A DNA stretch of 64,000 nucleotides from Eledone cirrhosa (taxonomy: Eukaryota): the NCBI GenBank assembly GCA_964016885.1, contig OZ024743.1:336660001-336724000 (forward strand). Direction: 5' to 3'. Positions 1,980-49,615 of the stretch are shown here, piece after piece (position 1 is the first letter of the stretch; every line of letters starts with the position of its first letter). The notes beneath the pieces were generated by a model. That model was not told the DNA's origin and did no database searches. It saw nothing but the letters and a program-made list of their open reading frames with translations. A program made the position numbers and the translations under genes.

Positions 1980-2211
1980 ATTATTATTATTATTATTATT
2001 ATTGGCGACCTACGTAGGAAATCGTATTATCGTGAGCTCCGCAAAGGTTTGTTATTTCCGTTTGTTTAAAAATTGCCATTTATGGAAAATTTTATTGTTA
2101 ACTGTTTATAAGCACACATACATTGTTTTCCGAAAAGGACACCCAAAAAGATTGGGGCCTTGTGCCCAAAATTTTAACTTTTATTATTATCCAAAAATTT
2201 CTTTGAAAAAA

Positions 2212-4201
2212 ATGGCTAATTCCCCTCTGCACGAAGCAGCTGAAAGCCTTCCTCACAAAATAACACCTCACACCGACACCACCATTGTAAATGTTACTAC
2301 GTTTACCAACACAAAAAAAAATATAAGCAGTAGCAATATTTTAAATTTGTCTCAGGCAGACATTCATTTCCCGCCATTACCAATGACTGCAGGTGTTAAA
2401 GCCTCCACCACCACCACCACCGCGACAACCACCACCCCCACCACCACCGCGACAACAGAAACAAAAGAAGAAAAAAATAAATTAACTCGTGATGTCGAAA
2501 TGAAATCAAGCAAAATGGACTCTTCCGCACCAAAGACGAATGACGTCACCACAACTGAAATAAAAATTAAGATTAACACAAATAACGATAGCAACAACAA
2601 CAACAATGACATTATAAAACCGACCCTCAGTTTCGCCATCGTAGCAAAACAATTCGAAGCGTTCACGGTAACTCAAGAAGATTTAGAAAATGCCAAACAG
2701 ATGGTAAAGAAAGATGGGTACAGGGCCAGCCTCACCCCCCCCCCCCCACCTAATAAAATGGAGCATCGGCGCCTGTGCACCGTGTCGTATAGAACAATAA
2801 ATGTAAAATCGCGCCGAGTGGAACGGGCATCCGAGTCCCAAATCCAAAAAGCTTTGGGACATGTGTGGGCAAGAAAAACCCACATAAGACGTGGGCAAAA
2901 GTATGGAACCGTGGATGTGTTCTTTGAAACACCAGAGGAGGCTAGAGAACACTCCATGGCCCCATTAAAAAGTGACGACCTCATACTCGTCCCAAGCTAT
3001 TGTGGCCAGAGACTCGTAAAGATCAGGGTGACCCACGTTCCACCGGCCATCGAAATTCCCTGGCTAATAGCGGCTGTCCTCGCCGGCATCGAAGCCAACA
3101 CGAAAATAATAGCAGTAGCAAAAGAAAAGCAGGAAAACTGGTCCGGATCTGGGATGGAGCTCCTGATCCAAGCGGACCAAAAAAGCATTGAGGAGATCCC
3201 AGAGGTAATAGACCTCACTGACGGCAGCCACCTCACGGTAATTGTCGAGGGCAGAAGACCTAGGTGTGTCGTTTGTGGTGAAGGAACCCACCTAAGGGCT
3301 TTCTGCCCTCAGGCTAAAAGGTTGAGGCCACCTCTCCTACCCACCCCAGTGACACAACCATCAACACCACCAGTAGCAGAGATGGCAGCAACAACTGTAG
3401 CAGCAACAACAGAAGCAACTATAACAGCAACAACCCCAGCAACAGTAGCAAAACCAACACCACTACCACCACCAGCAAAACCAACACCACCACCACCCAA
3501 CGCTTCAGAACTAGCACCAGCGCCTACACCATCCACCACACCACAACCAAAACTAACGGCTGTGGAGGATTTTCCACTCGCCGGCCTATCACAACTGGAG
3601 ACAGATTGTGACGACGAGGAGTGGGAAACAATATCCGGAAAAAAAAAAAGAAACCAAAAAAGAAAAAATTCTCTTCCTTCCCCCTCCAAAAACAAAATAC
3701 AGAGGGAAACAAATAAACTAAGAAACAAAAAAGTTAGGACAGATATGCCACCATCCACACCAGCATCACCAACCCCATCAACCCAAACACCAACACCATC
3801 ACCATCATTATCCCCAGCACCACCATCACCTACACCACAAAAGTCACCAAAATGCGAAACAGAAACAAACCCACAACAAACGCAAACAAAACAACCAAAA
3901 CGATACACACTACACAGCATTAAATTTGAACAACAAGCAATTATTACACTACATCCAACACAACACCAGCATCACAGAAAAAGACTACACAACAACCCCA
4001 AAATTCACACCACCTCCACACATACAAATCACTCGCATCACACAGAAAACGTACATGACACTAAAACAAAAATTCCCCAAAGACATCGGAGACTTCCGAC
4101 AAGCACTCTCCAGGAGGATTTATAAGGACATCCTTCCTGAGGAGGCCACAAGCAGTGAAAAGGATGGAAAAGCCGTCCTTCCCCTACGAGAAGTAAGGTA
4201 A
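2212..4201 (+). pseudogene. ORF1 type A (gag-like: putative RRM-like region, CCHC knuckle, Pro/Thr-rich tail), frameshifted at ~3900-3925
   Basis: CVVCGEGTHLRAFC knuckle. ORF 3926..4201 (NKQLLHYIQHNT..) is homologous to the type B ORF1 C-terminus (NKKLMTYIIEHT..). Confidence 0.85.
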
Positions 4202-4235
4202 GTGGTCTTTCCCATCTTTTCCACTCCTTTTCAAC

Positions 4236-7200: not shown

Positions 7201-7659
7201 CGGGATAAACTCTACAGGCATGGAGGTGCCGTCAGCCGGGCATGTCCGAGATGCGCGCAGGGCGACGAAACCGTCCTGCACGCACTCGTCCAGTGTCCGA
7301 GCATTGCTGACTTGTGGGTTTATGTCGAACACCTGCTGTCACGTGTAGGACGGATCCAGCTATCAGCTGAGTCCATCGTGAGGATTGCCCCGCCCCCTTC
7401 CTTTAGCCTGGAAGGGCAGGCAGTTTTTATCTGTCTGGTGGCCATGGCGAAAGAGATAGTATGGTGGACACGTTTGAAAGGGCTGAAGACGAGCACTTAC
7501 CTCTTCGGTGATGCCCTGATTAACTTTTTCAAATTTCATTTGAAAAGGAAAATCAGGGTAGAGAGGGAAGTGCTCTCTTCCCAGCATTTTGTTGAAAGTT
7601 GGGTGAGAGAAGCAAGTATGGCCCGAATGAATGGGCCTTCTCTGAGTATGTGTCTGTAA
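4236..7659 (+). pseudogene. ORF2 (APE endonuclease + RT + CCHC) with TGA at 4437-4439 and a 4-nt insertion at ~4590
   Basis: Comparison with intact 10277..13696. Motifs INARGL, GDWN, TDH, QGCPLS, YADD. Confidence 0.92.
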
Positions 7660-8143
7660 ATTAAAGGTGGAAAACTGGGAGAGGGCACTTGCCCTGGTGG
7701 TCAGGGCCACTGTGGTCTTTTAATGGGCTTTCTCCACAAATGTCCCTTGGAAGTCTCCCCCCTATTGGGGAATTTTTCTTTGTTATTTTATTTCAACCTC
7801 TGTTTTTTTACACGCAGAAATGCCCATTTGTACCGTCCTGTATTGTCCTGTACTGTCCTTAATGTCTACTTTATGTGAACCCTTGTGGTTAATAAAGAAA
7901 ACATTATTATTATTATTATTATTATTATTGAATGCCATGGTTGACGGAGGCTCGGCTCTGTAAGGTATAGTAATTTTTAACCGTTAAAACAATTGTAAAT
8001 TGTTTAAAACTTGAACCAAATTGTTGATAAAGACACCCTCCTCCTCGTGAGAGGGGTCTTTCTGTCCGTTATTTGGCCCTTCGGGGTTAAATAACCAGTT
8101 ATTGGGGTTTTGTACCCAATATTCATTTTAAACAAAAAACAAC

Positions 8144-10241
8144 ATGGCTACGAAAAAGAAATTTCATACGTCACTCCCACTCATTCCGTCTTCTTCTTCC
8201 TCAATCATCACTACAGCAGAGAGAAGATTGTCTCTCTCCCTCCCTTCTTTAAATGTGTATCTCTCCCTCCCTTCTCTTTCGCAAGTGACGAAAGAAAAGA
8301 AAAGTCTCGTGCAAAGCGTGCAAGGTTTCTCCACGACGACGACGACAGCGACGAAACAGGTGTGCGGGAAATACGAAAACCCAGTTCATTCGTCTGACGT
8401 CAGGAATAATAGCAGTAGCAGCCGTAATAACAACAGCAACAGTGACAATGAAAACAACAGTAGCAGCCGCAACAGCATCACCAGCAGCATAAACAACAAC
8501 AGTATTAGCAGCAGCAACACTAACAACAACCACAGCAACAGCGGCGGAGGCAGTAGTCGTAGTACATGCAGCAACAACAAAAGTACCAGCAGCTCTGACG
8601 ACAACAACAACAGCAGAGAAAAACCAATCTCATTTGCAGGTATTGCGAAAAACTTGGAAACAATCCTCATAACAAATGAGGAATTAGAGGAAGCGAAGAA
8701 GATGGTGACAAAGAACGGACACCGAGCAATCTGCAAGGCAGCGGAAAAATTTTTCGAAACCCAAGAGCACTGTACGGTCACGTACCGTACAGTAAGTACA
8801 AAATCCCGTAGGGTGGAAAGAGCCACAGAGGCCCAAATACAAAAAGCCTTGGGGTCTGTGTGGCAGCGGAAAACGCACATCACCCGAGGCAAAAAATATG
8901 CCACCGTAGACGTACTTTTTGCCACACCCCAGGAGGCAAAGGCCCAATCAGTAGTGACCCTAAGGAGCGAGGAAATGGTGTTGGTGCCCTCCTACTGCGG
9001 GCAAAAAAATTGTGAGGGTCAAACTGACCCACGTCCCCCCCGGAATGACCCCTTCTTGGCTGGCCGCGTCTGTCCTCGTCGGAATCGAGGACAAAACAAC
9101 TGTACTGCAAGTACAGAAAAAAGTAAGAGAAGATTGGGTCGGCTCCTCCATTGAGATGCTAATCCAAACCAACCAGGAGTGCATCGAAGCTATCCCGGAT
9201 GTGATAGACTTCGATAACGGCACTCAACTGCCCATAAGTGTTGAGGGCAAACGCCCGAAATGCTTTCGCTGTGGATCGAAGACTCACCTCAGGGCCTTCT
9301 GCAACGAGAAGACCCTGAGAAAGGAGAAAACCCCCCTCCTTCCGAATCCGGCTCCACGGCTACCAGCAACAGGACAAGCGGCAACCAGGAACGATAGGCC
9401 CGTGGCACCCATACCCACTCCACGGAAATCAAAAACAGCAGCAGCAGTGGAAATACTAACAACAACAACAGCAATACCAAATGCAGCTGCAACAGAGACT
9501 CCAGTGCAAACATCACCAACAACAACAAGTGAAAGAGTGGAGCTGGTACCCCTCCCCGACCTCACAGAATCAGACATGGAGTGTGAGGTGGGAGAGAGAT
9601 GGCAAAAGGTCGTAAGAAGGCACAAACGCAGAAGCAGCGCATCGTCGCCTTTGAAAAGGGAGGAAAGAAATGAGAAAAGGGTAAAGTCTACTGCAAAGAG
9701 ACCCACAGCAGCAACAACACCAACACCATCACCACCCACACTAGCGCCACCATCACCACCGGCGACAACCCCACCGCCAACAACACCTTCAACACCACCA
9801 CCACAAGCACCAACATCGCAAACACAACAACAAAACACACACACCCAGCAACAACGACAAGAAAATAGCAGAACTACACCCCACCCCCAGAAAAACAAAT
9901 GCACGGCAATAAATACACACAACAAGAAACTAATGACTTACATAATTGAACACACAGACATTTCACAACAGGACTACATAATACCAGCACCAATCAAAAC
10001 GCCAACTAACATAAGACTGCTAAAAATAGCACAGAAACAATACACAAATATTAAAACGAAATTCCCCAACGCAGTTGGTGATTTCAGGGACCTAGGAGGA
10101 ACCATCAATCGAAGAGTATACTCAGACATTCTCTTAGAAGAGCCGACGACCAGCCGAAGGGACGATTCAACGGTCCCTTCACCAGACGATCAAGTGAAAA
10201 GGGATGTAAAAACCATCCCTCCTCTACCAAAAGTACGGTAA
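8144..10241 (+). pseudogene. ORF1 type B with +1 frameshift in an A-run at 9003-9009 (A7 vs A6; could be a sequencing error)
   Basis: ORFs 8144..9154 and 9012..10241 together match intact ORF1 17865..19964. CFRCGSKTHLRAFC knuckle. Confidence 0.88.
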
Positions 10242-10276
10242 GTGGTCTTTCCCATCTTTTCCACTCTATTTTAAAC

Positions 10277-13200
10277 ATGACCTCACTCAGAATAGGCAGC
10301 ATAAATGCGCGTGGCTTGGGGTCGTCATGGAAGCAGGGTCACCTGCTCAACGACCTCAGGTCACTAAACATAGATGTAGTGGCCATCAGCGAGACCAGAA
10401 TCTCCGAAGCACGGGCCTTCGCACCGATCTTCGGCGGCTACGATGTGTACGCATCTCCCAGCCGTCCTGGATCCGGTGGAGGAGTTGCTGTACTTTTTCG
10501 GAGAGGTTTGGATCTCGCCATACGGGCCATCTTCCTGGACCCAGAGGGTAAGCTGGTGGTGCTGGACGTGACCAGCGGAGACGGGCAAGCTTTCAGGCTA
10601 GTGGCCGTCTATGCCCCGACAGGAGCAGGGCGGCCTGATTTCTTCCGGCGTCTGGAGACCTTTCTTGGAACGTCGCGCTCTTTAGTGTTAGTGGGCGACT
10701 GGAACGGGATCTTAGATGCACGCTGGGACTGTGTGGGATTAGCGGATAGGGGTGGAGGGTGCAAGAGCCTCACCAACCTGCTCAGGCGTTTTGAACTGTC
10801 TGACAGGTACCGATTGGATTTCCCGAATGTGCCAATGTGGACTTGGACAAACCGCATAGGGTCATCCAGATCATATCTAGATAGAGTATTTTGTAGGGAA
10901 ATAGATAGGTCTAGCATAGGCTGTCCACAATTCAAGATAGTCAGCTACACGGACCACAAATTCGTGATCTGTGTGCTTGACTTAGATAGGCTTCATAGAC
11001 GAGGACCCGGCTACTGGAAGCTAAACGCGTCCTTACCAGCGCGCAAGGCCTACAGAGACCGGATTAGCGAACTAGTTAAGCGGGCGTTGACGGGGGCCAT
11101 CGTCAACAACAAGTGGTGGTTTGCTCTGAAAAGAGCGATTAGAATAGAATCGATTAGGTTTAGTAAGGCTTTAGCAATAGAGAAAAATAGAGCAGAGGGA
11201 GAACTAGTTAGAAAATTAGACGAGGCGCTTAGCAAAGGCATTGCGACCGACGTGCTTGCGGCGAAATTGGCCCTTGACCAATTCTTCAATGCAAAGCACG
11301 AAGGCTGCGTTGTCAGAGCTAGGGTGCGTGCTCTCAGACACGAGGGGACGAAAGCCGTTCAATGGGCCCGAGTGGCGGAGGCGCGTCGTGGCAACAAAGC
11401 CACGATCCGGTCTTTGGTGGACCACGACGGGCGCATGCTACTCGATCCCGGGCAAATGTGTGAAGCTTTTCAGCGACACTTCGCTCAGCTGTTCGGGGGC
11501 AGCGGTGGGCCGGGTAGAGGGATGGACTTTAGTGTCTACCTCGACGGACTGCCGCGGCTCTCGGCCACTGAGGCGAAGTGTTGCGAAAAGCCGATAACAG
11601 CCGCTGAAGTAAGGGAGGCAATGACTGGCTGCACAAGGGGTAAATCGCCTGGTTTGGATGGTCTGCCCTATGAACTTTACGTACAGATGCCAGACTTGTT
11701 CGGAGGCCTCTTGGCGGACGTCTACTGCAACTGGCAACAGAACGGGAGAATTCCCAGTTCTGTGAGCCGAGGAGCGGTGGCACTGCTGAGAAAGGATCCG
11801 AACAAGGGGGATAACATAGAAAATTTCCGGCCCATAACTCTGCTAAACACAGAGTTTAAGATTTTGGCCAAGGTGCTAGCAAAGAGGTTGGCGCTTGTCG
11901 TTGGTGGTCTGGTGGGAGAGGCGCAGACATGCGCCATTCCCGACAGATCCATCCACGACAACCTCCACCTCATGCGATACATCGTAGAGAGGGTAGCTAG
12001 GGAACCTGGCACGGGTGGGTCCTTGATCAATTTAGATCAGTCGAAAGCTTTCGATAGGGTCGACCATCGTTACCTAGCGGCAGTCCTGAGGGCGGCTGGC
12101 TTTGGGCCCGTCTTCAGAGGCTGGATCGCTGCCATGCACAGCGACATCTGCTCTGTGGTGAGAGTGAACGGTCACCTGTCGGAACCGTTCAACATCATGC
12201 GCTCGGTCCGCCAAGGATGTCCCCTCTCGTCCCTCTTGTACGTATTGACTCTCGAGCCATTACTGCACAAACTGGAGACGTTGAGGGGAGTCCCGCGCGA
12301 ACTAGGATGCGGAAGATCCGTGTCAGCATATGCGGACGATGTCACCGTAGTGGTGTCGAACGCCAAACACATCGAGGCGATCGGCACTACACTAAGAGAA
12401 TACGAAGCGGGGACAGGAGCAATGATCAACCAGGAAAAGTCGGTGGGCCTGCAGCTCGGCACCTGGAGAGGCAGGTCCATGCCGTCCAACAGCGTCGTCG
12501 GGCGCTGGACGGACGGACCGGTTAAATTGCTAGGGGTCTGGTTCGGTCCGGACCTCCAGACGGACAAAAACTGGGACGAGGTGACGAGCAGGGTGGCTTC
12601 TCTCACCCAGAAATGGGCGGAGAGAAAGCTATCCCTGAAAGGTCGAGCGGAGGTGGCTAACGCGTACATCGCGTCTGTCATCTGCTACCGCCTAACCGTC
12701 GTACCTTGTCCTAAGCCTCGCCTGACTGCGCTGGAGCGTTTGCTCTTTCGCTTTTTGTGGAAGGGACGTGCTCCGATGGTCAGGCGGTCCATCTGTTGTC
12801 AACACCCGCTACGTGGAGGGCTGGGCATGCCGTGGCTGATGATGCGCAGGCACGCGCTCAGGCTACGACATCTCCACCTCTTCCTCGACGGTGATCAGGT
12901 GTGGTCGCCGTTTGCTAGACGCGTTTTTCCCCAGCTCGTTTCCTTGACGGAGCTGCAGTCCTGGGTCAAGCGAAGACCGAGAGGGAGCGCCTGGAGACTG
13001 GAATGTCTTCAGGCGCTCACAGCCCTCGACCAATCGGGCAATGTGATCGGTGGAAACTCCACCTCGGCGTTCTATAGAGGATTAGTGGAGGGGAAGAGCG
13101 ACGACGTACTTGGGGAAACTCTAGGCGTCGACGAAAATCAACTAGCCAATCTCTTCGGAAGAACTTTCGGGCCGGGGCCTATGGACAACTTCCAGAAATC

Positions 13201-13696
13201 TCTGGCCTGGCAGTGCTACCGAGGAGCCTTGCCAGTTCGGGATAAACTCTACAGGCATGGAGGTGCCGTCAACCGGGCATGTCCGAGATGCGCGCAGGGC
13301 GACGAAACCGTCCTGCACGCACTCGTCCAGTGTCCGAAAATTGCTGACTTGTGGGTTTATGTCGAACACCTGCTGTCGCGTTTAGGACGGATCCAGCTAT
13401 CATCTGAGTCTATCGTGAGGATTGCCCCGCCCTCCTCCTTTAGCCGGGAAGGGCAGGCAGTTTTTATCTGTCTGGTGGCCATGGCGAAAGAGATAGTATG
13501 GTGGACACGTTTGAAAGGGCTGAAGACGAGCACTTACCTCTTCGGTGATGCTCTGATTGACTTTTTCAAATTTCATTTGAAAAGGAAAATCAGAGTAGAG
13601 AAGGAAGTGCTCTCTTCCCAGCATTTTGTTGAAAGATGGGTGAGAGAAGCAAGAATGGCCCGAGTGAATGGGCCGACTCTGAGTATATATCTGTAA
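10277..13696 (+). CDS. ORF2, intact 1139 aa APE endonuclease / reverse transcriptase, L1/Tx1-like
   Basis: APE motifs (INARGL, SET, VYAP, GDWN, LDRVF, TDH), GPGYWKLN, RT motifs (KSPGLDG, FRPITLLN, DQSKAFDRV, QGCPLS, YADD), C-terminal CPRC..H....C. Confidence 0.96.
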   Translation: MTSLRIGSINARGLGSSWKQGHLLNDLRSLNIDVVAISETRISEARAFAPIFGGYDVYASPSRPGSGGGVAVLFRRGLDLAIRAIFLDPEGKLVVLDVTSGDGQAFRLVAVYAPTGAGRPDFFRRLETFLGTSRSLVLVGDWNGILDARWDCVGLADRGGGCKSLTNLLRRFELSDRYRLDFPNVPMWTWTNRIGSSRSYLDRVFCREIDRSSIGCPQFKIVSYTDHKFVICVLDLDRLHRRGPGYWKLNASLPARKAYRDRISELVKRALTGAIVNNKWWFALKRAIRIESIRFSKALAIEKNRAEGELVRKLDEALSKGIATDVLAAKLALDQFFNAKHEGCVVRARVRALRHEGTKAVQWARVAEARRGNKATIRSLVDHDGRMLLDPGQMCEAFQRHFAQLFGGSGGPGRGMDFSVYLDGLPRLSATEAKCCEKPITAAEVREAMTGCTRGKSPGLDGLPYELYVQMPDLFGGLLADVYCNWQQNGRIPSSVSRGAVALLRKDPNKGDNIENFRPITLLNTEFKILAKVLAKRLALVVGGLVGEAQTCAIPDRSIHDNLHLMRYIVERVAREPGTGGSLINLDQSKAFDRVDHRYLAAVLRAAGFGPVFRGWIAAMHSDICSVVRVNGHLSEPFNIMRSVRQGCPLSSLLYVLTLEPLLHKLETLRGVPRELGCGRSVSAYADDVTVVVSNAKHIEAIGTTLREYEAGTGAMINQEKSVGLQLGTWRGRSMPSNSVVGRWTDGPVKLLGVWFGPDLQTDKNWDEVTSRVASLTQKWAERKLSLKGRAEVANAYIASVICYRLTVVPCPKPRLTALERLLFRFLWKGRAPMVRRSICCQHPLRGGLGMPWLMMRRHALRLRHLHLFLDGDQVWSPFARRVFPQLVSLTELQSWVKRRPRGSAWRLECLQALTALDQSGNVIGGNSTSAFYRGLVEGKSDDVLGETLGVDENQLANLFGRTFGPGPMDNFQKSLAWQCYRGALPVRDKLYRHGGAVNRACPRCAQGDETVLHALVQCPKIADLWVYVEHLLSRLGRIQLSSESIVRIAPPSSFSREGQAVFICLVAMAKEIVWWTRLKGLKTSTYLFGDALIDFFKFHLKRKIRVEKEVLSSQHFVERWVREARMARVNGPTLSIYL

Positions 13697-13955
13697 ACTA
13701 AAGGTGGAAAACTGGGAGAGGGCACTTGCCTTGGTGGTCAGGGTCATTGTGGCTTTTTACTGGGCTTTCTCCACAAATGTCCCTCCGAAGTCTCCCCCCT
13801 ATTGGGGAATTTTTCATTGTTATTTTCATTGTTATTTTTGTTACATCCTCTGTTTTTGTTTTTTACACGCAGAAATGCCCATTTGTACCGTCCTGCATTG
13901 TCCTGCACTGTCCTTAATGTCTACTTTATGTAAACCCTTGTGGTTAATAAAGAAA

Positions 13956-13999
<44 letters not shown>

Positions 14000-14010: not shown

Positions 14011-17000
14011 TCCTTGAATCTCAGTCATTGATGTTGGTTAACTGGAAAGTCCGTTGGATTGAATATCAAGCCACTACCTGCAGCCTCAGATATTCAGGAC
14101 GTATCGGAGGGTTCTTGCCGTTCCAAGCAAGCATGCCTTTTGAAGCGTTCCAAAAAGCGTGAAGGGGCCAATTTTCTTTAACCATCCCTGGAAACCTTTG
14201 GAGATAGTCCCCAGTGCGCCTATGACAATCGGGATCACTTTGACTTCATGGCAGTTCCAAATCCTTTTCACCTCCCACTTTAGGTCCTGGTATCGGTTAA
14301 TTTTCTCCCTCTCCTTCTCTTGCACTCTCGTGTCAAACGGGCAGGCCACATCCACAATCAGGCACGATCTTTTTTCTTTGTCCACAACCACCAGGTCAGG
14401 TCTATTGTGTTCCAGTTTTTTGTCCGTCTGTATCCTAAAATCCCACAGCACCTTCACCTGACTGTTCTCCATCACCGCCTCTGGCCTATGCTCATACCAT
14501 TTCTCAGAATGTGGTAGATTGTTTACTTTGCACAGGTGCCAGTGGATCACCCTGCCCATCACATCGTGTCTCCAGCCCTTATAGTGGGTCTGGGCTAGGT
14601 GTTTACACTCGGACACAATGTGAGCCACAGTCTCCTCTCTCTCTCCACAGATCCTGCACAGTGGGCTAGCCTCCTCCTTGTAGATATGGTGCTTCAACCA
14701 CTTCGTTTTGAGGGCCTGCTCCTGCGCAGCCATTAGCATTCCTTCTGTAGCCTTTTTGAGGTCTCCTCTTCTCAACCAGTTCCATGTCTGTGGATCTCTA
14801 AATTCAGTTTTCTCAAAGAAGGTACTATGAAGGGATTTTCCCTTAAGGCTGCTCTTCCTCCTTGATGTTATTTCCTCCTTGGATATCCCCTGGCCTACTG
14901 TCCCCTCCTTCAGTACAGCTCTGAGCATTGGCTCCTTACTATAGGTCACGTATTTGTATAGGTTGTTTTTCTCCATCTGAACACAGTCTTCTATGCTGAT
15001 AAGACCTCTTCCACCCTCAGATCTCCTTAGGTAGAGTCTATCGACATCACTCCTCTTGTGGAACATGTTGTAGATAGTCAATAGCTTCCTAGTCTTCCTA
15101 TCCATTTCTTTTTGTTCAGCAACATTCCATCTCAGAATTCCCGCACTGTACCTAATAATAGACACAGCTCGGGAATTTACTGCGCTTATGGCATTTCTGC
15201 TGTTCAGATGTGACTTCAATACGCTCCTTACTCTCCGAATGTATTCAGTTCTTAACAATTCCTTCATTTTTTTGTTCTTTATGCCATCAGCCTCCAGAAC
15301 GCCCAAATACTTGTATCCTTTCTCAGAGTCAATTTCCTTTATCATCTCACCTGTTGGTATCTGGATCCCGTTACTTCTACTCAACCTACCCCTCTTCATC
15401 ACAATGACTCCACATTTACCAATACCAAACTGCATACATATATCACTGCTGAAAATACGGACAGTGTCAACAAGCACATCCAACTCCTTCTCACTTTTCC
15501 CGAAGAGCTTAAGATCGTCCATGAAGAGGAGGTGATTGATGGTAAGCTCTCCCCTTCCCAACTTGTATCCTGCTCTCACTTTTCGCAGCATAATGGTCAA
15601 GGGCATCAGGGCAAGGACAAACAACAGAGGGGACAGGCTATCTCCCTGGAAGATACCTCTCTTGATCTTCACGCTTCCCAAGGATACTCCAGTTGATGTC
15701 AACTCTGTCTCCCAGGACCCCATACTCCTGCCCAGCAACTGTCTGATGTTATCTGCCACCCTGAAGATCTCCAGGCTTTTGGTGATCCAGGAATGAGGCA
15801 CCATGTCAAATGCCTTTCTGTAGTCTATCCATCCCATGGCAAGATCAGTGTGTCTCCTCCTGCAATTCCCCATTACCATCTTATCAATAAGCAACTGGTC
15901 CTTTGTACCACGTGACTTCTTTCGGCATCCTTTCTGTTCGTCCGGCAACAAGTTGTTTGTGTGGAGGTGATGGTAGATTTCCTCAGACATAATGCTCGTC
16001 AACAGTTTCCGCATTACGGGCAGACATGTGATAGGTCTATAGTTGGTAACATCATTACCCTTGATTCGGTCTTTCATTATCAGAACTGTGGTACCTTTTG
16101 TCAACCACTCTGGCACCTCACCCGACACCAAGCAGTCATTGAACATGGCCGTCAGCTTCGGGTGGAGGGATGTTAAATGTTTAATCCAATACCCCTGCAC
16201 ACCATCTGGGCCTGGTGATTTCCAGTTGGTTAGTTTTTTGGCTTGCCCCTTAATAGTTTCAACTGTGATACTCAAATCAGTCTGTTGCTGTGCCTGCTCA
16301 CCGATCTCCCTCTGTACTGTCTCAATCCACCCTGCCTGGGCATTGTGTCTAACATCCTGCTCCCATATTCCTCTCCAGAATGTTTTAGCTTGTTCCGCCC
16401 CAGGGATCAAGTCGTTGCCTCTTTCTTTCCCCTCAAGCTGTCCAAACAGCATCTTCTGGTTGTTGTCGAACATGCGGTTCTGTTTATACTGACTGACTCT
16501 GTTCTCGTATCGCCTGATTTTGGCACTCTTTGCTACAATGCGTTGCTTCAATTCCTCTATGATAATATTTAGCTTTTTACTTCTAGTTTTGTATTTTATT
16601 TCCAGTCTATTTTTAGTGCCTATGTTTTTTAGTGTCCCATTCAGTAGTGACTCAAGCTTTCCTATGTCATTTCTCATTTCCCCGATTTGCCCACTGAGTC
16701 GCTTCTTCCACCACGGCTCTGCTCTTTCTTGTCTGTTGTTTCCTCTCGCTTTTATACCAAGTAGTTTCCTCACCGTACTTGCTGTTGCTTTGAGGATATT
16801 GTTGCACTGGTGAAGACTCCTCGCCTCAAGGTATGGGATGACTTTGTTTACCTTAGCTGTTGTTTCTTTTAACTTTTTCCTGTCTACAAATCTTAGGTTC
16901 ATAGGTCTCCCACTATCATTGTTCAACTCATCTACCACTAAATTTAGGATGTCAACCGAATCTTGTCCTAGCCCGTCAGCATTCATCTCCTCAGTGGCCG

Positions 17001-17611
17001 TATCTCTGTTCCAGGTATTATTTATCTCAGTATTCAGATCATTGTCTGCTTCGGGTGGTTCCTCCGTTCTCAGGACCTCCTCACCTTCATTTCCCGCCGG
17101 CTCGCTTGTCTGGCATACTACACCCGCCATCTCCAAGCCATTCTCTCTGCTCAGTTCCTCCAGTTCCAGCTCGCTTATCCACCCATTAGTTCTTATTACC
17201 CGAGCCTGCCCGGCCAATTTTTGTTCATCTAATTTAAATAAACCAATCTCGTTCCAGATGTTATGCATCCGTCTCCTGTAGCCCCTCTCCTTGGGGTTAC
17301 TTTTCAGGTAGCATTGCATAACAGTTCTATTCAATTCTTTCGTCCAGTTGGTTCTGGCCTCTTTCCTTCTTCTTCTTCCTCCAACATCAGCAGTATTTGG
17401 TTGACAGTCAGGTTCCTGCTGCTGAGCCAGGGGGCACCTGTTGGGTGAGAGTCTGTCACATGACGTTCTAGTCTCCATTTCACCGTTACTCGAACTGTTT
17501 ATGTTCGATATTTAAACACTCTTATCGAGGATTGGCGAATGTATGTTTACATAGCCATCTGTGGATCCGCCATCCCACTTGGCCCTTGTGTGGCATTATC
17601 ACCACGCTGTA

Positions 17612-17613
<2 letters not shown>
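14011..17613 (-). mobile_element. R4/Dong-like RLE non-LTR retrotransposon, full-length
   Basis: Single long ORF with short UTRs. (TAA)n on the sense strand at both ends. Near-identical to 34918-38520. Confidence 0.93.
14086..17478 (-). CDS. Intact 1130 aa RT + restriction-like endonuclease protein
   Basis: N-terminal W...N..VM.CY..S.P..RGYR.RM..IW, RT (KSPGPDG, QGDSLSP, FMDD), CRIC..ET..HI...C, RHD, PD..D..K nuclease motif. Confidence 0.95.
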   Translation of the reverse strand: METRTSCDRLSPNRCPLAQQQEPDCQPNTADVGGRRRRKEARTNWTKELNRTVMQCYLKSNPKERGYRRRMHNIWNEIGLFKLDEQKLAGQARVIRTNGWISELELEELSRENGLEMAGVVCQTSEPAGNEGEEVLRTEEPPEADNDLNTEINNTWNRDTATEEMNADGLGQDSVDILNLVVDELNNDSGRPMNLRFVDRKKLKETTAKVNKVIPYLEARSLHQCNNILKATASTVRKLLGIKARGNNRQERAEPWWKKRLSGQIGEMRNDIGKLESLLNGTLKNIGTKNRLEIKYKTRSKKLNIIIEELKQRIVAKSAKIRRYENRVSQYKQNRMFDNNQKMLFGQLEGKERGNDLIPGAEQAKTFWRGIWEQDVRHNAQAGWIETVQREIGEQAQQQTDLSITVETIKGQAKKLTNWKSPGPDGVQGYWIKHLTSLHPKLTAMFNDCLVSGEVPEWLTKGTTVLIMKDRIKGNDVTNYRPITCLPVMRKLLTSIMSEEIYHHLHTNNLLPDEQKGCRKKSRGTKDQLLIDKMVMGNCRRRHTDLAMGWIDYRKAFDMVPHSWITKSLEIFRVADNIRQLLGRSMGSWETELTSTGVSLGSVKIKRGIFQGDSLSPLLFVLALMPLTIMLRKVRAGYKLGRGELTINHLLFMDDLKLFGKSEKELDVLVDTVRIFSSDICMQFGIGKCGVIVMKRGRLSRSNGIQIPTGEMIKEIDSEKGYKYLGVLEADGIKNKKMKELLRTEYIRRVRSVLKSHLNSRNAISAVNSRAVSIIRYSAGILRWNVAEQKEMDRKTRKLLTIYNMFHKRSDVDRLYLRRSEGGRGLISIEDCVQMEKNNLYKYVTYSKEPMLRAVLKEGTVGQGISKEEITSRRKSSLKGKSLHSTFFEKTEFRDPQTWNWLRRGDLKKATEGMLMAAQEQALKTKWLKHHIYKEEASPLCRICGEREETVAHIVSECKHLAQTHYKGWRHDVMGRVIHWHLCKVNNLPHSEKWYEHRPEAVMENSQVKVLWDFRIQTDKKLEHNRPDLVVVDKEKRSCLIVDVACPFDTRVQEKEREKINRYQDLKWEVKRIWNCHEVKVIPIVIGALGTISKGFQGWLKKIGPFTLFGTLQKACLLGTARTLRYVLNI

Positions 17614-17651
<38 letters not shown>

Positions 17652-17864
17652 GAATGCCATGGTTGACGGAGGCTCGGCTCTGTAAGGTATAGTAATTTTT
17701 AACCGTTAAAACAATTGTAAATTGTTTAAAACTTGAACCAAATTGTTGATAAAGACACCCTCCTCCTCGTGAGAGGGGTCTTTCTGTCCGTTATTTGGCC
17801 CTTCGGGGTTAAATAACCAGTTATTGGGGTTTTGTACCCAAAATTTCATTTTACACAAAAAAAC

Positions 17865-19964
17865 ATGGCTACCAAAAAGAAATTTCATACGTCACTCCCA
17901 CTCATTCCGTCTTCTTCTTCCTCAATCATCACTACAGCAGAGAGAAGATTGTCTCTCTCCCTCCCTTCTTTAAATGTGTCTCTCTCCCTCCCTTCTCTTT
18001 CGCAAGTGACGAAAGAAAAGAAAAGTCTCGTGCAAAGCGTGCAAGGTTTCTCCACGACGACGACGACAGCGACGAAACAGGTGTGCGGGAAATACGAAAA
18101 CCCAGTTCATTCGTCTGACGTCAGGAATAATAGCAGTAGCAGCCGTAATAACAACAGCAACAGTGACAATGAAAACAACAGTAGCAGCCGCAACAGCATC
18201 ACCAGCAGCATAAACAACAACAGCATTAGCAGCAGCAACACCAACAACAACCACAGCAACAGCGGCGGAGGCAGTAGTCGTAGTACCTGCAGCAACAACA
18301 AAAGTACCAGCAGCTCTGACGACAACAACAACAACAGCAGAGAAAAACCAATCTCATTTGCAGGTATTGCGAAAAATTTGGAAACAATCCTCATAACAAA
18401 TGAGGAATTAGAGGAAGCGAAGAAGATGGTGACAAAGAACGGACACCGAGCAATCTGCAAGGCAGCGAAAAATTTTTTCGAAACCCAAGAGCACTGTACG
18501 GTCACGTACCGTACAGTAAGTACAAAATCCCGTAGGGTGGAAAGAGCCACAGAGGCCCAAATACAAAAAGCCTTGGGGTCTGTGTGGCAGCGGAAAACGC
18601 ACATCACCCGAGGCAAAAAATATGCCACCGTAGACGTACTTTTTGCCACACCCCAGGAGGCAAAGGCCCAATCAGTAGTGACCCTAAGGAGCGAGGAAAT
18701 GGTGTTGGTGCCCTCCTACTGTGGGCAAAAAATTGTGAGGGTCAAACTGACCCACGTCCCCCCCGGAATGACCCCTTCTTGGCTGGCCGCGTCTGTCCTC
18801 GTCGGAATCGAGGACAAAACAACTGTACTGCAAGTACAGAAAAAAGTAAGAGAAGATTGGGTCGGCTCCTCCATTGAGATGCTAATCCAAACCAACCAGG
18901 AGTGCATCGAAGCTATCCCGGATGTGATAGACTTCGATAACGGCACTCAACTGCCCATAAGTGTTGAGGGCAAACGCCCGAAATGCTTTCGCTGTGGATC
19001 GAAGACTCACCTCAGGGCCTTCTGCAACGAGAAGACCCTGAGAAAGGAGAAAACCCCCCTCCTTCCGAATCCGGCTCCACGGCTACCAGCAACAGGACAA
19101 GCGGCAACCAGGAACGATAGGCCCGTGGCACCCATACCCACTCCACGGAAATCAAAAACAGCAGCAGCAGTGGAAATACTAACAACAACAACAGCAATAC
19201 CAAATGCAGCTGCAACAGAGACTCCAGTGCAAACATCACCAACAACAACAAGTGAAAGAGTGGAGTTGGTACCCCTCCCCGACCTCACAGAATCAGACAT
19301 GGAGTGTGAGGTGGGAGAGAGATGGCAAAAGGTCGTAAGAAGGCACAAACGCAGAAGCAGCGCATCGTCGCCTTTGAAAAGTGAGGAAAGAAATGAGAAA
19401 AGGGTAAAGTCTACTGCAAAGAGACCCACAGCAGCAACAACACCAACACCATCACCACCCACACTAGCGCCACCATCACCACCGGCGACAACCCCACCGC
19501 CAACAACACCTTCAACACCACCACCACAAGCACCAACATCGCAAACACAACAACAAAACACACACACCCAGCAACAACGACAAGAAAATAGCAGAACCAC
19601 ACCCCACCCCCAGAAAAACAAATGCACGGCAATAAATACACACAACAAGAAACTAATGACTTACATAATTGAACACACAGACATTTCACAACAGGACTAC
19701 ATAATACCAGCACCAATCAAAACGCCAACTAACATAAGACTGCTAAAAATAGCACAGAAACAATACACAAATATTAAAACGAAATTCCCCAACGCAGTTG
19801 GTGATTTCAGGGACCTAGGAGGAACCATCAATCGAAGAGTATACTCAGACATTCTCTTAGAAGAGCCGACGACCAGCCGAAGGGACGATTCAACGGTCCC
19901 TTCACCAGACGATCAAGTGAAAAGGGATGTAAAAACCATCCCTCCTCTACCAAAAGTACGGTAA
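17865..19964 (+). CDS. ORF1 type B, 699 aa gag-like nucleic-acid-binding protein
   Basis: ATG at 17865, Asn/Ser-rich N-terminus, putative RRM-like core, CCHC knuckle, Pro/Thr-rich tail. Confidence 0.9.
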   Translation: MATKKKFHTSLPLIPSSSSSIITTAERRLSLSLPSLNVSLSLPSLSQVTKEKKSLVQSVQGFSTTTTTATKQVCGKYENPVHSSDVRNNSSSSRNNNSNSDNENNSSSRNSITSSINNNSISSSNTNNNHSNSGGGSSRSTCSNNKSTSSSDDNNNNSREKPISFAGIAKNLETILITNEELEEAKKMVTKNGHRAICKAAKNFFETQEHCTVTYRTVSTKSRRVERATEAQIQKALGSVWQRKTHITRGKKYATVDVLFATPQEAKAQSVVTLRSEEMVLVPSYCGQKIVRVKLTHVPPGMTPSWLAASVLVGIEDKTTVLQVQKKVREDWVGSSIEMLIQTNQECIEAIPDVIDFDNGTQLPISVEGKRPKCFRCGSKTHLRAFCNEKTLRKEKTPLLPNPAPRLPATGQAATRNDRPVAPIPTPRKSKTAAAVEILTTTTAIPNAAATETPVQTSPTTTSERVELVPLPDLTESDMECEVGERWQKVVRRHKRRSSASSPLKSEERNEKRVKSTAKRPTAATTPTPSPPTLAPPSPPATTPPPTTPSTPPPQAPTSQTQQQNTHTQQQRQENSRTTPHPQKNKCTAINTHNKKLMTYIIEHTDISQQDYIIPAPIKTPTNIRLLKIAQKQYTNIKTKFPNAVGDFRDLGGTINRRVYSDILLEEPTTSRRDDSTVPSPDDQVKRDVKTIPPLPKVR

Positions 19965-19999
19965 GTGGTCTTTCCCATCTTTTCCACTCTATTTTAAAC

Positions 20000-22900
20000 A
20001 TGACCTCACTCAGAATAGGCAGCATAAATGCGCGTGGCTTGGGGTCGTCATGGAAGCAGGGTCACCTGCTCAACGACCTCAGGTCACTAAACATAGATGT
20101 AGTGGCCATCAGCGAGACCAGAATCTCCGAAGCACGGGCCTTCGCAGCGATCTTCGGCGGCTTCGATGTGTACGCATCTCCCAGCCGTCCTGGATCCGGT
20201 GGAGGAGTTGCTGTGCTTTTTCGGAGAGGTTTGGATCTCGCCATACGGGCCATCTTCCTGGACCCAGAGGGTAAGCTGGTGGTGCTGGACGTGACCAGCG
20301 GAGACGGGCAAGCTTTCAGGCTAGTGGCCGTCTATGCCCCGACAGGAGCAGGGCGGCCTGATTTCTTCCGGCGTCTGGAGACCTTTCTTGGAACGTCCCG
20401 CTCTTTAGTGTTAGTGGGCGACTGGAACGGGATCTTAGATGCACGCTGGGACTGTGTGGGATTAGCGGATAGGGGTGGAGGGTGCAAGAGCCTCACCAAC
20501 CTGCTCAGGCGTTTTGAACTGTCTGACAGGTACCGATTGGATTTCCCGAATGTGCCAATGTGGACTTGGACAAACCGCATAGGGTCATCCAGATCATATC
20601 TAGATAGAGTATTTTGTAGGGAAATAGATAGGTCTAGCATAGGCTGTCCACAATTCAAGATAGTCAGCTACACGGACCACAAATTCGTGATCTGTGTGCT
20701 TGACTTAGATAGGCTTCATAGACGAGGACCCGGCTACTGGAAGCTAAACGCGTCCTTACCAGCGCGCAAGGCCTACAGAGACCGGATTAGCGAACTAGTT
20801 AAGCGGGCGTTGACGGGGGCCATCGTCAACAACAAGTGGTGGTTTGCTCTGAAAAGAGCGATTAGAATAGAATCGATTAGGTTTAGTAAGGCTTTAGCAA
20901 TAGAGAAAAATAGAGCAGAGGGAGAACTAGTTAGAAAATTAGACGAGGCGCTTAGCAAAGGCATTGCGACCGACGTGCTTGCGGCGAAATTGGCCCTTGA
21001 CCAATTCTTCAATGCAAAGCACGAAGGCTGCGTTGTCAGAGCTAGGGTGCGTGCTCTCAGACACGAGGGGACGAAAGCCGTTCAATGGGCCCGAGTGGCG
21101 GAGGCGCGTCGTGGCAACAAAGCCACGATCCGGTCTTTGGTGGACCACGACGGGCGCATGCTACTCGATCCCGGGCAAATGTGTGAAGCTTTTCAGCGAC
21201 ACTCCGCTCAGCTGTTCGGGGGCAGCGGGGGGCCGGGTAGAGGGATGGACTTTAGTGTCTACCTCGACGGACTGCCGCGGCTCTCGGCCACTGAGGCGAA
21301 GTGTTGCGAAAAGCCGATAACAGCCGCTGAAGTACGGGAGGCAATGACTGGCTGCACAAGGGGTAAATCGCCTGGTTTGGATGGTCTGCCCTATGAACTT
21401 TACGTACAGATGCCAGACTTGTTCGGAGGCCTCTTGGCGGACGTCTACTGCAACTGGCAACAGAACGGGAGAATTCCCAGTTCTGTGAGCCGAGGAGCGG
21501 TGGCACTGCTGAGAAAGGATCCGAACAAGGGGGATAACATAGACAATTTCCGGCCCATAACTCTGCTAAACACAGAGTTTAAGATTTTGGCCAAGGTGCT
21601 AGCAAAGAGGTTGGCGCTTGTCGTTGGTGGTCTGGTGGGAGAGGCGCAGACATGCGCCATTCCCGACAGATCCATCCACGACAACCTCCACCTCATGCGA
21701 TACATCGTAGAGAGGGTAGCTAGGGAACCTGGCACGGGTGGGTCCTTGATCAATTTAGATCAGTCGAAAGCTTTCGATAGGGTCGACCATCGTTACCTAG
21801 CGGCAGTCCTGAGGGCGGCTGGCTTTGGGCCCGTCTTCAGAGGCTGGATCGCTGCCATGCACAGCGACATCTGCTCTGTGGTGAGAGTGAACGGTCACCT
21901 GTCGGAACCGTTCAACATCATGCGCTCGGTCCGCCAAGGATGTCCCCTCTCGTCCCTCTTGTACGTATTGACTCTCGAGCCATTACTGCACAAACTGGAG
22001 ACGTTGAGGGGAGTCCCGCGCGAACTAGGATGCGGAAGATCCGTGTCAGCATATGCGGACGATGTCACCGTAGTGGTGTCGAACGCCAAACACATCGAGG
22101 CGATCGGCACTACACTAAGAGAATACGAAGCGGTGACAGGAGCAATGATCAACCAGGAAAAGTCAGTGGGCCTGCAGCTCGGCACCTGGAGAGGCAGGTC
22201 CATGCCGTCCAACAGCGTCGTCGGGCGCTGGACGGACGGACCGGTTAAATTGCTAGGGGTCTGGTTCGGTCCGGACCTCCAGACGGACAAAAACTGGGAC
22301 GAGGTGACGAGCAGGGTGGCTTCTCTCACCCAGAAATGGGCGGAGAGGAAGCTATCCCTGAAAGGTCGAGCGGAGGTGGCTAACGCGTACATCGCGTCTG
22401 TCATCTGCTACCGCCTAACCGTCGTACCTTGTCCTAAGCCTCGCCTGACTGCGCTGGAGCGTTTGCTCTTTCGCTTTTTGTGGAAGGGACGTGCTCCGAT
22501 GGTCAGGCGGTCCATCTGTTGTCAACACCCGCTACGTGGAGGGCTGGGCATGCCGTGGCTGATGATGCGCAGGCACGCGCTCAGGCTACGACATCTCCAC
22601 CTCTTCCTCGACGGTGATCAGGTGTGGTCGCCGTTTGCTAGACGCGTTTTTCCCCAGCTCGTTTCCTTGACGGAGCTGCAGTCCTGGGTCAAGCGAAGAC
22701 CGAGAGGGAGCGCCTGGAGACTGGAATGTCTTCAGGCGCTCACAGCCCTCGACCAATCGGGCAATGTGATCGGTGGAAACTCCACCTCGGCGTTCTATAG
22801 AGGATTAGTGGAGGGGAAGAGCGACGACGTACTTGGGGAAACTCTAGGCGTCGACGAAAATCAACTAGCCAATCTCTTCGGAAGAACTTTCGGACCGGGG

Positions 22901-23419
22901 CCTATGGACAACTTCCAGAAATCTCTGGCCTGGCAGTGCTACCGAGGAGCCTTGCCAGTTCGGGATAAACTCTACAGGCATGGAGGTGCCGTCAGCCGGG
23001 CATGTCCGAGATGCGCGCAGGGCGACGAAACCGTCCTGCACGCACTCGTCCAGTGTCCGAAAATTGCTGACTTGTGGGTTTATGTCGAACACCTGCTGTC
23101 GCGTTTAGGACGGATCCAGCTATCATCTGAGTCTATCGTGAGGATTGCCCCGCCCTCCTCCTTTAGCCGGGAAGGGCAGGCAGTTTTTATCTGTCTGGTG
23201 GCCATGGCGAAAGAGATAGTATGGTGGACACGTTTGAAAGGGCTGAAGACGAGCACTTACCTCTTCGGTGATGCTCTGATTGACTTTTTCAAATTTCATT
23301 TGAAAAGGAAAATCAGAGTAGAGAAGGAAGTGCTCTCTTCCCAGCATTTTGTTGAAAGATGGGTGAGAGAAGCAAGAATGGCCCGAGTGAATGGGCCGAC
23401 TCTGAGTATATATCTGTAA
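20000..23419 (+). CDS. ORF2, intact 1139 aa APE/RT
   Basis: Same motifs as 10277..13696, with only a few residue differences. Confidence 0.96.
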   Translation: MTSLRIGSINARGLGSSWKQGHLLNDLRSLNIDVVAISETRISEARAFAAIFGGFDVYASPSRPGSGGGVAVLFRRGLDLAIRAIFLDPEGKLVVLDVTSGDGQAFRLVAVYAPTGAGRPDFFRRLETFLGTSRSLVLVGDWNGILDARWDCVGLADRGGGCKSLTNLLRRFELSDRYRLDFPNVPMWTWTNRIGSSRSYLDRVFCREIDRSSIGCPQFKIVSYTDHKFVICVLDLDRLHRRGPGYWKLNASLPARKAYRDRISELVKRALTGAIVNNKWWFALKRAIRIESIRFSKALAIEKNRAEGELVRKLDEALSKGIATDVLAAKLALDQFFNAKHEGCVVRARVRALRHEGTKAVQWARVAEARRGNKATIRSLVDHDGRMLLDPGQMCEAFQRHSAQLFGGSGGPGRGMDFSVYLDGLPRLSATEAKCCEKPITAAEVREAMTGCTRGKSPGLDGLPYELYVQMPDLFGGLLADVYCNWQQNGRIPSSVSRGAVALLRKDPNKGDNIDNFRPITLLNTEFKILAKVLAKRLALVVGGLVGEAQTCAIPDRSIHDNLHLMRYIVERVAREPGTGGSLINLDQSKAFDRVDHRYLAAVLRAAGFGPVFRGWIAAMHSDICSVVRVNGHLSEPFNIMRSVRQGCPLSSLLYVLTLEPLLHKLETLRGVPRELGCGRSVSAYADDVTVVVSNAKHIEAIGTTLREYEAVTGAMINQEKSVGLQLGTWRGRSMPSNSVVGRWTDGPVKLLGVWFGPDLQTDKNWDEVTSRVASLTQKWAERKLSLKGRAEVANAYIASVICYRLTVVPCPKPRLTALERLLFRFLWKGRAPMVRRSICCQHPLRGGLGMPWLMMRRHALRLRHLHLFLDGDQVWSPFARRVFPQLVSLTELQSWVKRRPRGSAWRLECLQALTALDQSGNVIGGNSTSAFYRGLVEGKSDDVLGETLGVDENQLANLFGRTFGPGPMDNFQKSLAWQCYRGALPVRDKLYRHGGAVSRACPRCAQGDETVLHALVQCPKIADLWVYVEHLLSRLGRIQLSSESIVRIAPPSSFSREGQAVFICLVAMAKEIVWWTRLKGLKTSTYLFGDALIDFFKFHLKRKIRVEKEVLSSQHFVERWVREARMARVNGPTLSIYL

Positions 23420-23678
23420 ACTAAAGGTGGAAAACTGGGAGAGGGCACTTGCCTTGGTGGTCAGGGTCATTGTGGCTTTTTACTGGGCTTTCTCCACAAA
23501 TGTCCCTCGAAGTCTCCCCCCTATTGGGGAATTTTTCATTGTTATTTTCATTGTTATTTTTGTTACATCCTCTGTTTTTGTTTTTTTACACGCAGAAATG
23601 CCCATTTGTACTGTCCTGCATTGTCCTGCACTGTCCTTAATGTCTACTTTATGTAAACCCTTGTGGTTAATAAAGAAA

Positions 23679-23737
<59 letters not shown>

Positions 23738-23738
<1 letters not shown>

Positions 23739-33911: not shown

Positions 33912-33977
<66 letters not shown>

Positions 33978-49556: not shown

Positions 49557-49615
<59 letters not shown>

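What the first reader, a model, noticed from the sequence alone, without database searches (positions are those of the whole stretch)
17613..23737. Intact Tx1-like family apparently specific for (TTA)n
Seen: copy B2 has both ORFs intact. All three visible 5' junctions are ATT|G and all four 3' junctions are C|ATT, with no poly(A) tail despite an AATAAA a few bases upstream (AATAAC in copy 0). Inference: a sequence-specific APE endonuclease cutting in fixed register in (TAA)n, with priming on the target. I do not recall a (TTA)n-specific Tx1 family, but cannot verify novelty.
Basis: partly seen in the sequence, partly recalled or inferred. Interest (0 to 1): 0.7.

Follow-up and report, generated by a model that had tools for sequence, protein, structure and literature searches.

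The report
Jumping gene that targets ATT repeats
A young, very abundant jumping gene in what is probably an octopus-type genome sits almost always inside ATT repeats and faces one way, likely because its own cutting enzyme picks that repeat, while a close sister family sits in TATC repeats instead, which would make the pair a simple test of how such genes choose where to land.

Summary
Confirmed and extended. B2 (17652-23680) is a two-ORF APE-RT-zinc-finger non-LTR retrotransposon of the L1 group, probably Tx1 clade (no named reference tree could be built). Genome-wide, 1627 of 1687 exact B heads follow (ATT)4. All of the first 100 of 5920 3' ends begin ATT, and only 5 have A10 within 30 nt. 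Eight 5'-truncated copies show 12-19 bp duplications starting at ATT, with no added tail. Four of the five A-tract copies still sit in ATT repeats, which favours targeting by the protein. A sister family with almost the same 3' end sits in (TATC)n (26 of 28 ends) and differs in the endonuclease hairpin loop. Against a clean model: 10 of 14 truncated copies in an unbiased sample lack upstream ATT. The invariant ATT|G register probably comes from repeat carried on the RNA 5' end, not only from cut register. Microsatellite-specific Tx1 families are known (Kibi, Koshi). I found no ATT-specific one in 8 paper searches; Repbase and Dfam could not be searched. The scan already noted this family and its TATC sister in other windows of this genome. 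New variant of a known kind.

The parts
17613..17651 (+). (ATT)13 upstream target run; lies between the 5' end of reverse-facing Dong-like element C and the B2 head
17652..17864 (+). B2 5' UTR, begins with G; this head has 1687 exact matches in the genome
   Evidence: no Rfam match or unusual fold
17865..19964 (+). ORF1, 699 aa, CX2CX4HX4C zinc knuckle at aa 374-387, low-complexity N- and C-terminal parts; no Pfam hit; 36% identical to ORF1 of copy A
20000..23419 (+). ORF2, 1139 aa: APE endonuclease (motifs SINARG 8, SETR 38, AVYAP 110, GDWN 140, SYLDR 199, YTDHK 224), RT (YADD 685), C-terminal zinc finger (CPRC 1002)
   Evidence: Pfam PF03372, PF00078, PF13966; human L1 ORF2p E=1.6e-51; motif positions
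23420..23680 (+). 3' UTR with AATAAA at 23669-23674, ending GAAATC; no poly(A)
23681..23737 (+). (ATT)19 downstream target run
7930..13957 (+). Copy B1, 99.4% identical to B2, ORF1 frameshifted; ATT runs on both sides
2004..7902 (+). Copy A: ORF2 and 3' part 95.8% identical to B, different 5' UTR and ORF1, frameshift early in ORF2; ATT runs on both sides
1..1437 (+). 3' part of copy 0 (older B-head copy, about 91% identical); its head lies left of the window
14012..17611 (-). Element C: one-ORF RT with a C-terminal restriction-like endonuclease motif, Dong/R4-like by inference; shares the ATT/AAT runs in the opposite orientation
   Evidence: best PDB hits R2 proteins
52860..54020 (-). Fragment of sister family E (about 70% DNA identity to B ORF2), whose genomic copies end in (TATC)n

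Best explanation
B2 is a young full-length copy of an L1-group, likely Tx1-clade, non-LTR retrotransposon whose copies sit almost exclusively in (ATT)n in one orientation, likely because its APE endonuclease nicks the AAT-reading strand at or next to Y|ATTAT. Steps. (1) Shown: both junctions lie in ATT runs genome-wide; truncated copies have 12-19 bp duplications beginning ATT and no added tail. (2) Inferred: the RNA is polyadenylated 0-9 nt past the terminal C, so many transcripts carry a few read-through AUU units. These pair with the nicked AAT 3' end, so reverse transcription starts inside the RNA and skips the poly(A). (3) Inferred: full-length RNA also carries upstream AUU units, so the cDNA end anneals to the other strand and gives the uniform ATT|G junction. 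(4) Shown: each insertion leaves ATT on both sides, and copies of different lineages stack at one site. Inferred: when an old copy lies downstream, the 5' end is resolved by homology with it, giving 30-51 bp duplications.
For: 5' ends: 1627 of 1687 heads follow (ATT)4. Only 3 lack a preceding T, and all 3 are in ATT runs. Only 13 have non-T at -10, and 11 of these have ATT directly before the head or ATT plus one T. For A heads, 29 of 30 follow at least (ATT)4. 3' ends: 100 of the first 100 of 5920 begin ATT, 96 ATTAT and 90 (ATT)3; 5 have A10 within 30 nt. Four of those 5 are followed by ATT repeats, and one is a full-length copy with (ATT)14 upstream. Duplications: 6 of 14 true truncation junctions among the 30 ATTAT-then-break loci show 12-16 bp duplications, plus two more of 16-19 bp. 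All 8 are preceded by C (5) or T (3). A 10-copy array on C1 repeats an imperfect, partly non-repeat spacer of 51, 36 or 30 bp. Its copies fall in several lineages: c4 is 10-11 differences from dispersed copies and 22-39 from its neighbours, and the 3'-most copy is the most diverged. Sister family E has almost the same 3' end but TATC within 16 nt in 26 of 28 ends. Its hairpin loop reads N-H/R-S/R-G-T/Q/I-S-R against N-R/L-I-G-S-S-R in ATT families. All catalytic APE motifs are present. Tx1L endonuclease nicks its own target specifically (PMC1950540 passages). Upstream target sequence on R2 RNA gives uniform 5' junctions (PMC3774820 abstract and passages).
Against: In an unbiased sample of 40 3' ends on C1, 14 copies were 5'-incomplete. 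Only 4 of these have ATT directly upstream; 10 do not. Four of the 10 abut the interior of a reverse-facing Dong-like copy, and none shows a duplication beyond the ATT run. I read these as deletions in nests, which is an inference. Three of the 14 truncation junctions show neither a duplication nor ATT; 5 more were ambiguous or in ATT runs. The ATTAT start was built into the pattern, and the nick position is uncertain within the C-ATTAT microhomology. Loop differences follow kinship, so they do not show cause, and PMC1950540 argues that loop flexibility may matter more than loop sequence in L1. Some A-tracts may be genomic rather than RNA tails (n=5). There is no RNA or biochemical evidence. 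The 5' run is shorter than the 3' run in 19 of 21 young solo B copies (medians 8 and 17 units) but not in older A copies.
Confidence: 0.72

Rival explanations
1. RNA-set targeting: the endonuclease is a loose nicker of AT-rich DNA. The site is chosen because read-through AUU units at the RNA 3' end can prime only on an AAT strand, and AUU at the 5' end completes only in ATT. The target is then inherited through the flanking repeat.
For: Priming microhomology at the 3' junctions examined and near absence of poly(A). No full-length copy with a non-ATT 5' flank was found by the two exception searches. The sister family with a different flank keeps that flank.
Against: Four of the 5 A-tract copies, whose RNA end could not pair with AAT, are still in ATT repeats. 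Copies followed by other repeats (ATT then CTT or ACT runs) exist but are rare, 2 of the first 100. The endonuclease loop differs between sisters. Tx1L endonuclease is specific in vitro.
Confidence: 0.17
2. The ATT runs are element-made tails, as in microsatellite-tailed LINEs, and the upstream runs are tails of earlier copies, so specificity is only apparent.
For: 10 of 14 truncated copies have a long 3' ATT run but no upstream ATT. Many heads follow another copy's 3' end.
Against: Off-target truncated copies end in C plus the duplication with no added repeats. In the C1 array the 3' flank is ATTATT followed by unique target sequence. Many heads follow ATT runs with unrelated sequence upstream. 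No duplication lies beyond the 3' run in the 10 cases.
Confidence: 0.07
3. The clusters come from DNA-level tandem or segmental duplication of one insertion, not from repeated targeting.
For: Identical 51-bp spacers and near-identical neighbours (c2 and c3, 5 differences) in the C1 array. Some duplication probably contributes.
Against: Array copies are polyphyletic and spacers differ in length. Copies lie on many contigs with unrelated flanks.
Confidence: 0.04

Closest known systems
Kibi (TC)n and Koshi (TTC)n of teleosts; crocodilian Tx1 families in (TTCC)n/(TTTC)n (Tx1 clade; PMC4494074 parts 2-3 and passages; PMC3812793 passages)
   Same: APE-type non-LTR elements that insert preferentially in a microsatellite.
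   Different: Target is (ATT)n, an A/T-only trinucleotide, in a probable mollusc. A sister family uses (TATC)n. No tree with these named families could be built, so kinship is not shown.
Xenopus Tx1L (PMC1950540 passages; PDB 2v0r loop graft)
   Same: APE domain; a specific targeting endonuclease is shown in vitro for Tx1L.
   Different: Tx1L targets the Tx1D transposon. Its hairpin loop is two residues longer than the loop here, which matches L1 in length.
Dong (R4 clade; B. mori, A. gambiae, snail DongBg) in (TAA)n (PMC3812793, PMC3774820 passages)
   Same: Same microsatellite. Dong-like element C shares the runs in this window.
   Different: B2 has an N-terminal APE domain and two ORFs and reads ATT on its sense strand; element C has a restriction-like endonuclease motif and reads AAT. 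The review lists Dong among APE-type elements; PMC4640811 places R4 among RLE clades.
Human L1 (PDB 9k6g, 8sxt)
   Same: Best solved-structure match, same EN-RT-zinc finger order, duplications of similar length, pyrimidine-purine step next to the inferred nick.
   Different: L1 primes on poly(A) at TTTT/AA and is promiscuous; here poly(A) is nearly absent and the repeat preference is about 96%.
L1-Tx1 families annotated in Octopus vulgaris (PMC13282606 passages and supplement)
   Same: 13 recently active L1-Tx1 families and 5 Dong-R4 families are listed for an octopus.
   Different: No target preference appears in the passages found or in the supplement searched, and no sequences were compared.

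Membership tests
L1 group of non-LTR retrotransposons | ORF2 with N-terminal APE endonuclease, RT and C-terminal zinc finger | tested here: met
   Pfam; human L1 ORF2p 178 bits against 79 for the best R2 protein
L1 group of non-LTR retrotransposons | Target-site duplication and 5' truncation, as expected from target-primed reverse transcription | tested here: met
   8 truncated copies with 12-19 bp duplications; many truncated copies show none
L1 group of non-LTR retrotransposons | 3' poly(A) tail in genomic copies (typical of L1, recalled; not the clade's formal definition) | tested here: not met
   5 matches with A10 within 30 nt against 5920 3' ends; AATAAA is present
Tx1 clade | RT phylogeny groups with named Tx1 elements (Tx1L, Keno, Kibi, Koshi) | tested here: inconclusive
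   No named Tx1 sequence was available. Named hits: Argonauta 73-74%, turtle and wrasse proteins about 40% in RT (285-309 bits), against 154 bits for human L1 over a similar stretch. The tree has no named Tx1 or L1 anchor. The Atlas names were generic (on homologue P0002).
Tx1 clade | ORF1 with a CCHC zinc knuckle (recalled feature) | tested here: met
   CX2CX4HX4C in B and A ORF1
Tx1 clade | Target sequence preference (common in the clade, PMC4494074) | tested here: met
Kibi / Koshi | Insertion in (TC)n or (TTC)n | tested here: not met
   Target is (ATT)n
Dong / R4 clade | Single ORF with C-terminal restriction-like endonuclease, reading (TAA)n on the sense strand | tested here: not met
   B2 has two ORFs and an APE domain and reads ATT; element C fits instead
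Sequence-specific APE retrotransposons | Endonuclease nicks the target specifically in vitro | not testable with these tools
   Needs purified protein

The most novel reading that the evidence does not exclude
In this octopod Tx1-like radiation, sister families with nearly the same RNA 3' end are locked on different microsatellites mainly because each RNA carries its own target repeat at both ends. The target would then be inherited through the RNA and could be reprogrammed by changing a few terminal nucleotides, with a tolerant endonuclease.
Probability: 0.15. Interest if true: 0.8.

Novelty: new variant of a known kind. Interest (0 to 1): 0.48.

Why it matters
The molecular basis of microsatellite targeting by APE-type retrotransposons is described as not well understood (PMC3812793). 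Here an ATT family and a TATC family are about 67% identical in ORF2, have nearly the same 3' end, and have open-frame ORF2 copies. Endonuclease, loop and RNA-end swaps can therefore separate protein from RNA contributions directly. The family also converges with an unrelated restriction-like-endonuclease element on the same repeat from the opposite strand. With 1687 exact B heads, 35 of 59 sampled full-length B copies open in both frames and 0.75% median divergence, it is probably a recent major mutagen of ATT microsatellites in this genome.

Tried and rejected
RNA evidence: no RNA holder listed; laying contigs of four runs showed only presence and gave nothing on RNA ends. A ribozyme or known RNA at the 5' end: Rfam on window 1-40000 gave only sub-threshold hits in simple repeats, and folding z-scores were -0.61, 0.77 and -0.35. 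Relatives with flanks in metagenomes: 72 loci, mostly distant (best segments mostly 22-35% identity); their flanks were not analysed. Named Tx1 references: none among protein hits or cluster members; the Kojima 2015 supplement was not available and may list targets I could not see; the Tx1L specificity paper PMC85248 is not held. My first guess of a mitochondrial insert at 24.5-26.5 kb was rejected: the frames look like a decayed RT plus GIY-YIG element (read by eye). Pure tandem duplication as the cause of arrays was rejected as a general cause. A search for duplications beyond the 3' ATT run in 17 copies without a head in register found only 6-8 nt words that I took as chance. An exact genome count of A heads was not made. 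No structure prediction was run, because sequence matches already fix the fold.

Full report
Observation. The window's first 24 kb is a stack of retrotransposons separated by ATT runs: copy 0 (1-1437), a 3' fragment of a Dong-like element, copy A (2004-7902), B1 (7930-13957), reverse-facing Dong-like C (14012-17611) and B2 (17652-23680). B2 has an open ORF1 (699 aa, CCHC knuckle) and an open ORF2 (1139 aa) with APE, RT and zinc-finger domains. The best solved-structure match is human L1 ORF2p (E=1.6e-51). B2 has two private ORF2 changes, P50A and F402S, against 40 of 40 other full-length ORF2s, so its own activity is not assured. The host is probably an octopod: the closest named protein is from Argonauta hians, 73-74% in RT. 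I did not try to identify it further.

Genome-wide 5' ends. The B head matches exactly 1687 times, and 1627 of these follow (ATT)4. The background is 43 of 111,400 positions in flanking DNA. Only 3 heads lack a preceding T, and each sits at an ATT run whose last base differs. Thirteen have non-T at -10; 11 of them have ATT (or ATT plus T) directly before the head, and two are diverged relatives ending GTTACT after an ATT run. For family A, 29 of 30 fetched heads follow at least four ATT, and the other follows two.

Genome-wide 3' ends. The 3' pattern matches 5920 times. That count needs a non-G 25 bases downstream, so it is a slight undercount. Of the first 100 listed, 100 begin ATT, 96 ATTAT and 90 (ATT)3. 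In 147 ends ATTAT is followed by a break. Five have A10 within 30 nt. In two of them the A-run starts directly at the terminal C, in two it starts after 6-9 nt, and in one later. Four of the five are followed by ATT repeats, and one is a full-length A copy with (ATT)14 upstream. These rare copies suggest that the RNA is polyadenylated at or just past the C, and that the site is still ATT when the RNA end cannot pair with it. The sample is small and some A-tracts may be genomic.

Target or tail. I examined 30 of the 147 ATTAT-break loci. Eleven ran past the locus edge, 5 were internal deletions and 14 were true truncation junctions. Six of the 14 show 12-16 bp duplications beginning ATTAT with no added repeat. 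Two lie in ATT runs, 3 are ambiguous and 3 show nothing. Two more truncated copies show 16-19 bp duplications, one with a single extra ATT. The base before the duplication is C in 5 and T in 3. ATTAT was part of the search pattern, and the nick could lie anywhere in the C-ATTAT microhomology. Of the 11 long ones, those with a head all had ATT upstream; several 3' breaks were later insertions of very short element ends (output partly cut).

Unbiased sample. I took every second entry among the first 89 listed 3' ends on C1, leaving out 5 fetched earlier (40 loci). All 40 end in ATT runs. In 25 the head was seen, and all 25 follow ATT. One is a chimera with a diverged relative, with its 5' end undetermined. 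Fourteen are 5'-incomplete: 4 have ATT upstream and 10 do not. Four of the 10 abut the interior of a reverse-facing Dong-like copy, one abuts (TTC)n, and none has a duplication beyond the ATT run. This is the main result against a clean model. Deletion within nests is my reading, because 9 of the 10 appear by eye to be followed by another element end and internal deletions are common in the sample, but it is not shown.

Register. Truncated copies join in different registers (ATTA|, ATTAT|, ATT|), whereas at least 96% of full-length heads join as ATT|G, and the two exception searches found no head in non-ATT DNA. A fixed second cut does not easily explain this. For R2, uniform 5' junctions arise when the RNA keeps upstream target sequence that anneals to the target (PMC3774820 abstract and passages). 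I infer the same here. No ribozyme was detected.

Arrays. At C1:441.09-441.14 Mb ten B copies are stacked in an imperfect repeat. The spacers are 50, 51, 51, 51, 51, 36, 51, 51 and 30 bp copies of the upstream flank, the longer ones including non-repeat letters, and all end in GCT(ATT)6|G. The copies fall in several lineages: c4 is 10-11 differences from dispersed copies including B2 but 22-39 from its neighbours, c1 is closest to a copy on C21, and the 3'-most copy is 66 or more differences from any other. So the site was hit several times. Some neighbours (5-17 differences) may be DNA duplicates. A similar long spacer recurs in a four-copy array on C21 and at L175. Among 56 full-length B copies the median pairwise divergence is 0.75%, and 35 of 59 have both ORFs open. 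Both sets are biased towards B2-like copies.

Sister family. The fragment at 52860-54020 (minus strand) is about 70% identical to B ORF2. Of 30 loci found with it, 28 show a 3' end nearly the same as B's; 26 of the 28 have TATC within 16 nt and none has ATTATT within 30 nt. Heads seen in these loci follow TATC-like runs. One copy (L375) aligns to ORF2 in one frame over all 1139 aa at 67% identity. The endonuclease hairpin loop, which contacts the DNA minor groove in L1 (PMC1950540 passages), differs consistently between the two groups. The TATC copies group apart from the ATT copies in an RT tree, apart from one poorly aligned row, so loop and target follow kinship and the link is a lead only.

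Dong-like partner. Element C's best structural matches are R2 proteins, and it has a C-terminal restriction-like motif (read by eye). In 53 of 53 distinct contexts of its 3' end in my loci it faces opposite to ATT. These loci were chosen next to Tx1-like copies, so the sample is biased.

Comparison with what is known. Tx1-clade families in (TC)n, (TTC)n, (TTCC)n and (TTTC)n are described (PMC4494074, parts 2-3 of 5 and passages). (TAA)n is listed only for Dong (PMC3812793 passages). Octopus papers count L1-Tx1 and Dong-R4 families, and the passages found state no targets (PMC13282606 passages and supplement; PMC8967140 passages). Also read as passages: PMC3747384, PMC4640811, PMC3124438. Eight searches found no ATT- or TTA-specific APE element. 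Kojima and Fujiwara 2004 was seen only as cited. The Kojima 2015 figure 3 labels and supplement, Repbase and Dfam were not seen, and any of them could list this target. Tx1 membership stays likely but unproven.

Earlier notes of the scan. Eight notes from other windows of this genome describe the same ATT family and the opposite-strand Dong pattern, and two describe the TATC family. I found the TATC family before looking it up. These notes are not independent support.

Verdict. A real, strongly (ATT)n-associated, young L1/Tx1-type family, most likely endonuclease-targeted with RNA-DNA pairing at both ends. It is a new target for a known habit, and the ATT/TATC sister pair is the most useful part. 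Interest 0.48.

Noticed in passing
window 2004-7902 against 17652-23680: Families A and B share ORF2 and the 3' UTR (95.8% DNA) but have different 5' UTRs and ORF1s (36% aa), with the switch at the end of ORF1; this looks like an ORF1 swap.
   Followed up: partly
window 34918-38547 (+): Second copy (D) of the Dong-like element, 98.1% identical to C, followed by AAT repeats.
   Followed up: partly
window 33880-34050: An (AAT)22 run between the same two flanks that surround the filled site L103, whose 3' run is also 22 units; a possible paralogous empty site.
   Followed up: no
window 24551-26507 (-): Decayed element with RT-like and GIY-YIG-like stretches, probably Penelope-like (read by eye).
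   Followed up: partly
window 49600-52240 (-): Decayed APE-RT element, RTE-like by eye, interrupted by (GA)48 and ending in (AGAT)19.
   Followed up: no
window 46146-47771 (+): RT fragment (Pfam RVT_1) related to the Dong-like element.
   Followed up: no
L102, L105, L179, L187, L189 flanks: A very common short repeat ends in a sequence resembling the Tx1-like 3' end followed by ATT, and truncated pieces of it sit in the same runs; possibly a SINE mobilised by this family.
   Followed up: no
G000:C1:441140800-441142920 (L035): 3'-truncated B copy (first 2.1 kb) followed by the array spacer at an internal ATATT-like word; internal priming or deletion.
   Followed up: partly
L249 (G000:C1:47419870) and window 23738-23830: A truncated B copy has nearly the same downstream flank as B2; either a shared repeat end or a 3' transduction.
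   Followed up: no
L049, L067, L072, L178, L354: Further diverged Tx1-like 3' ends (about 70-78% identical to B) also end in C followed by ATT, so the ATT preference is older than families A and B.
   Followed up: partly
L384: A short (TTAGGG)n stretch lies between two TATC-family copies.
   Followed up: no
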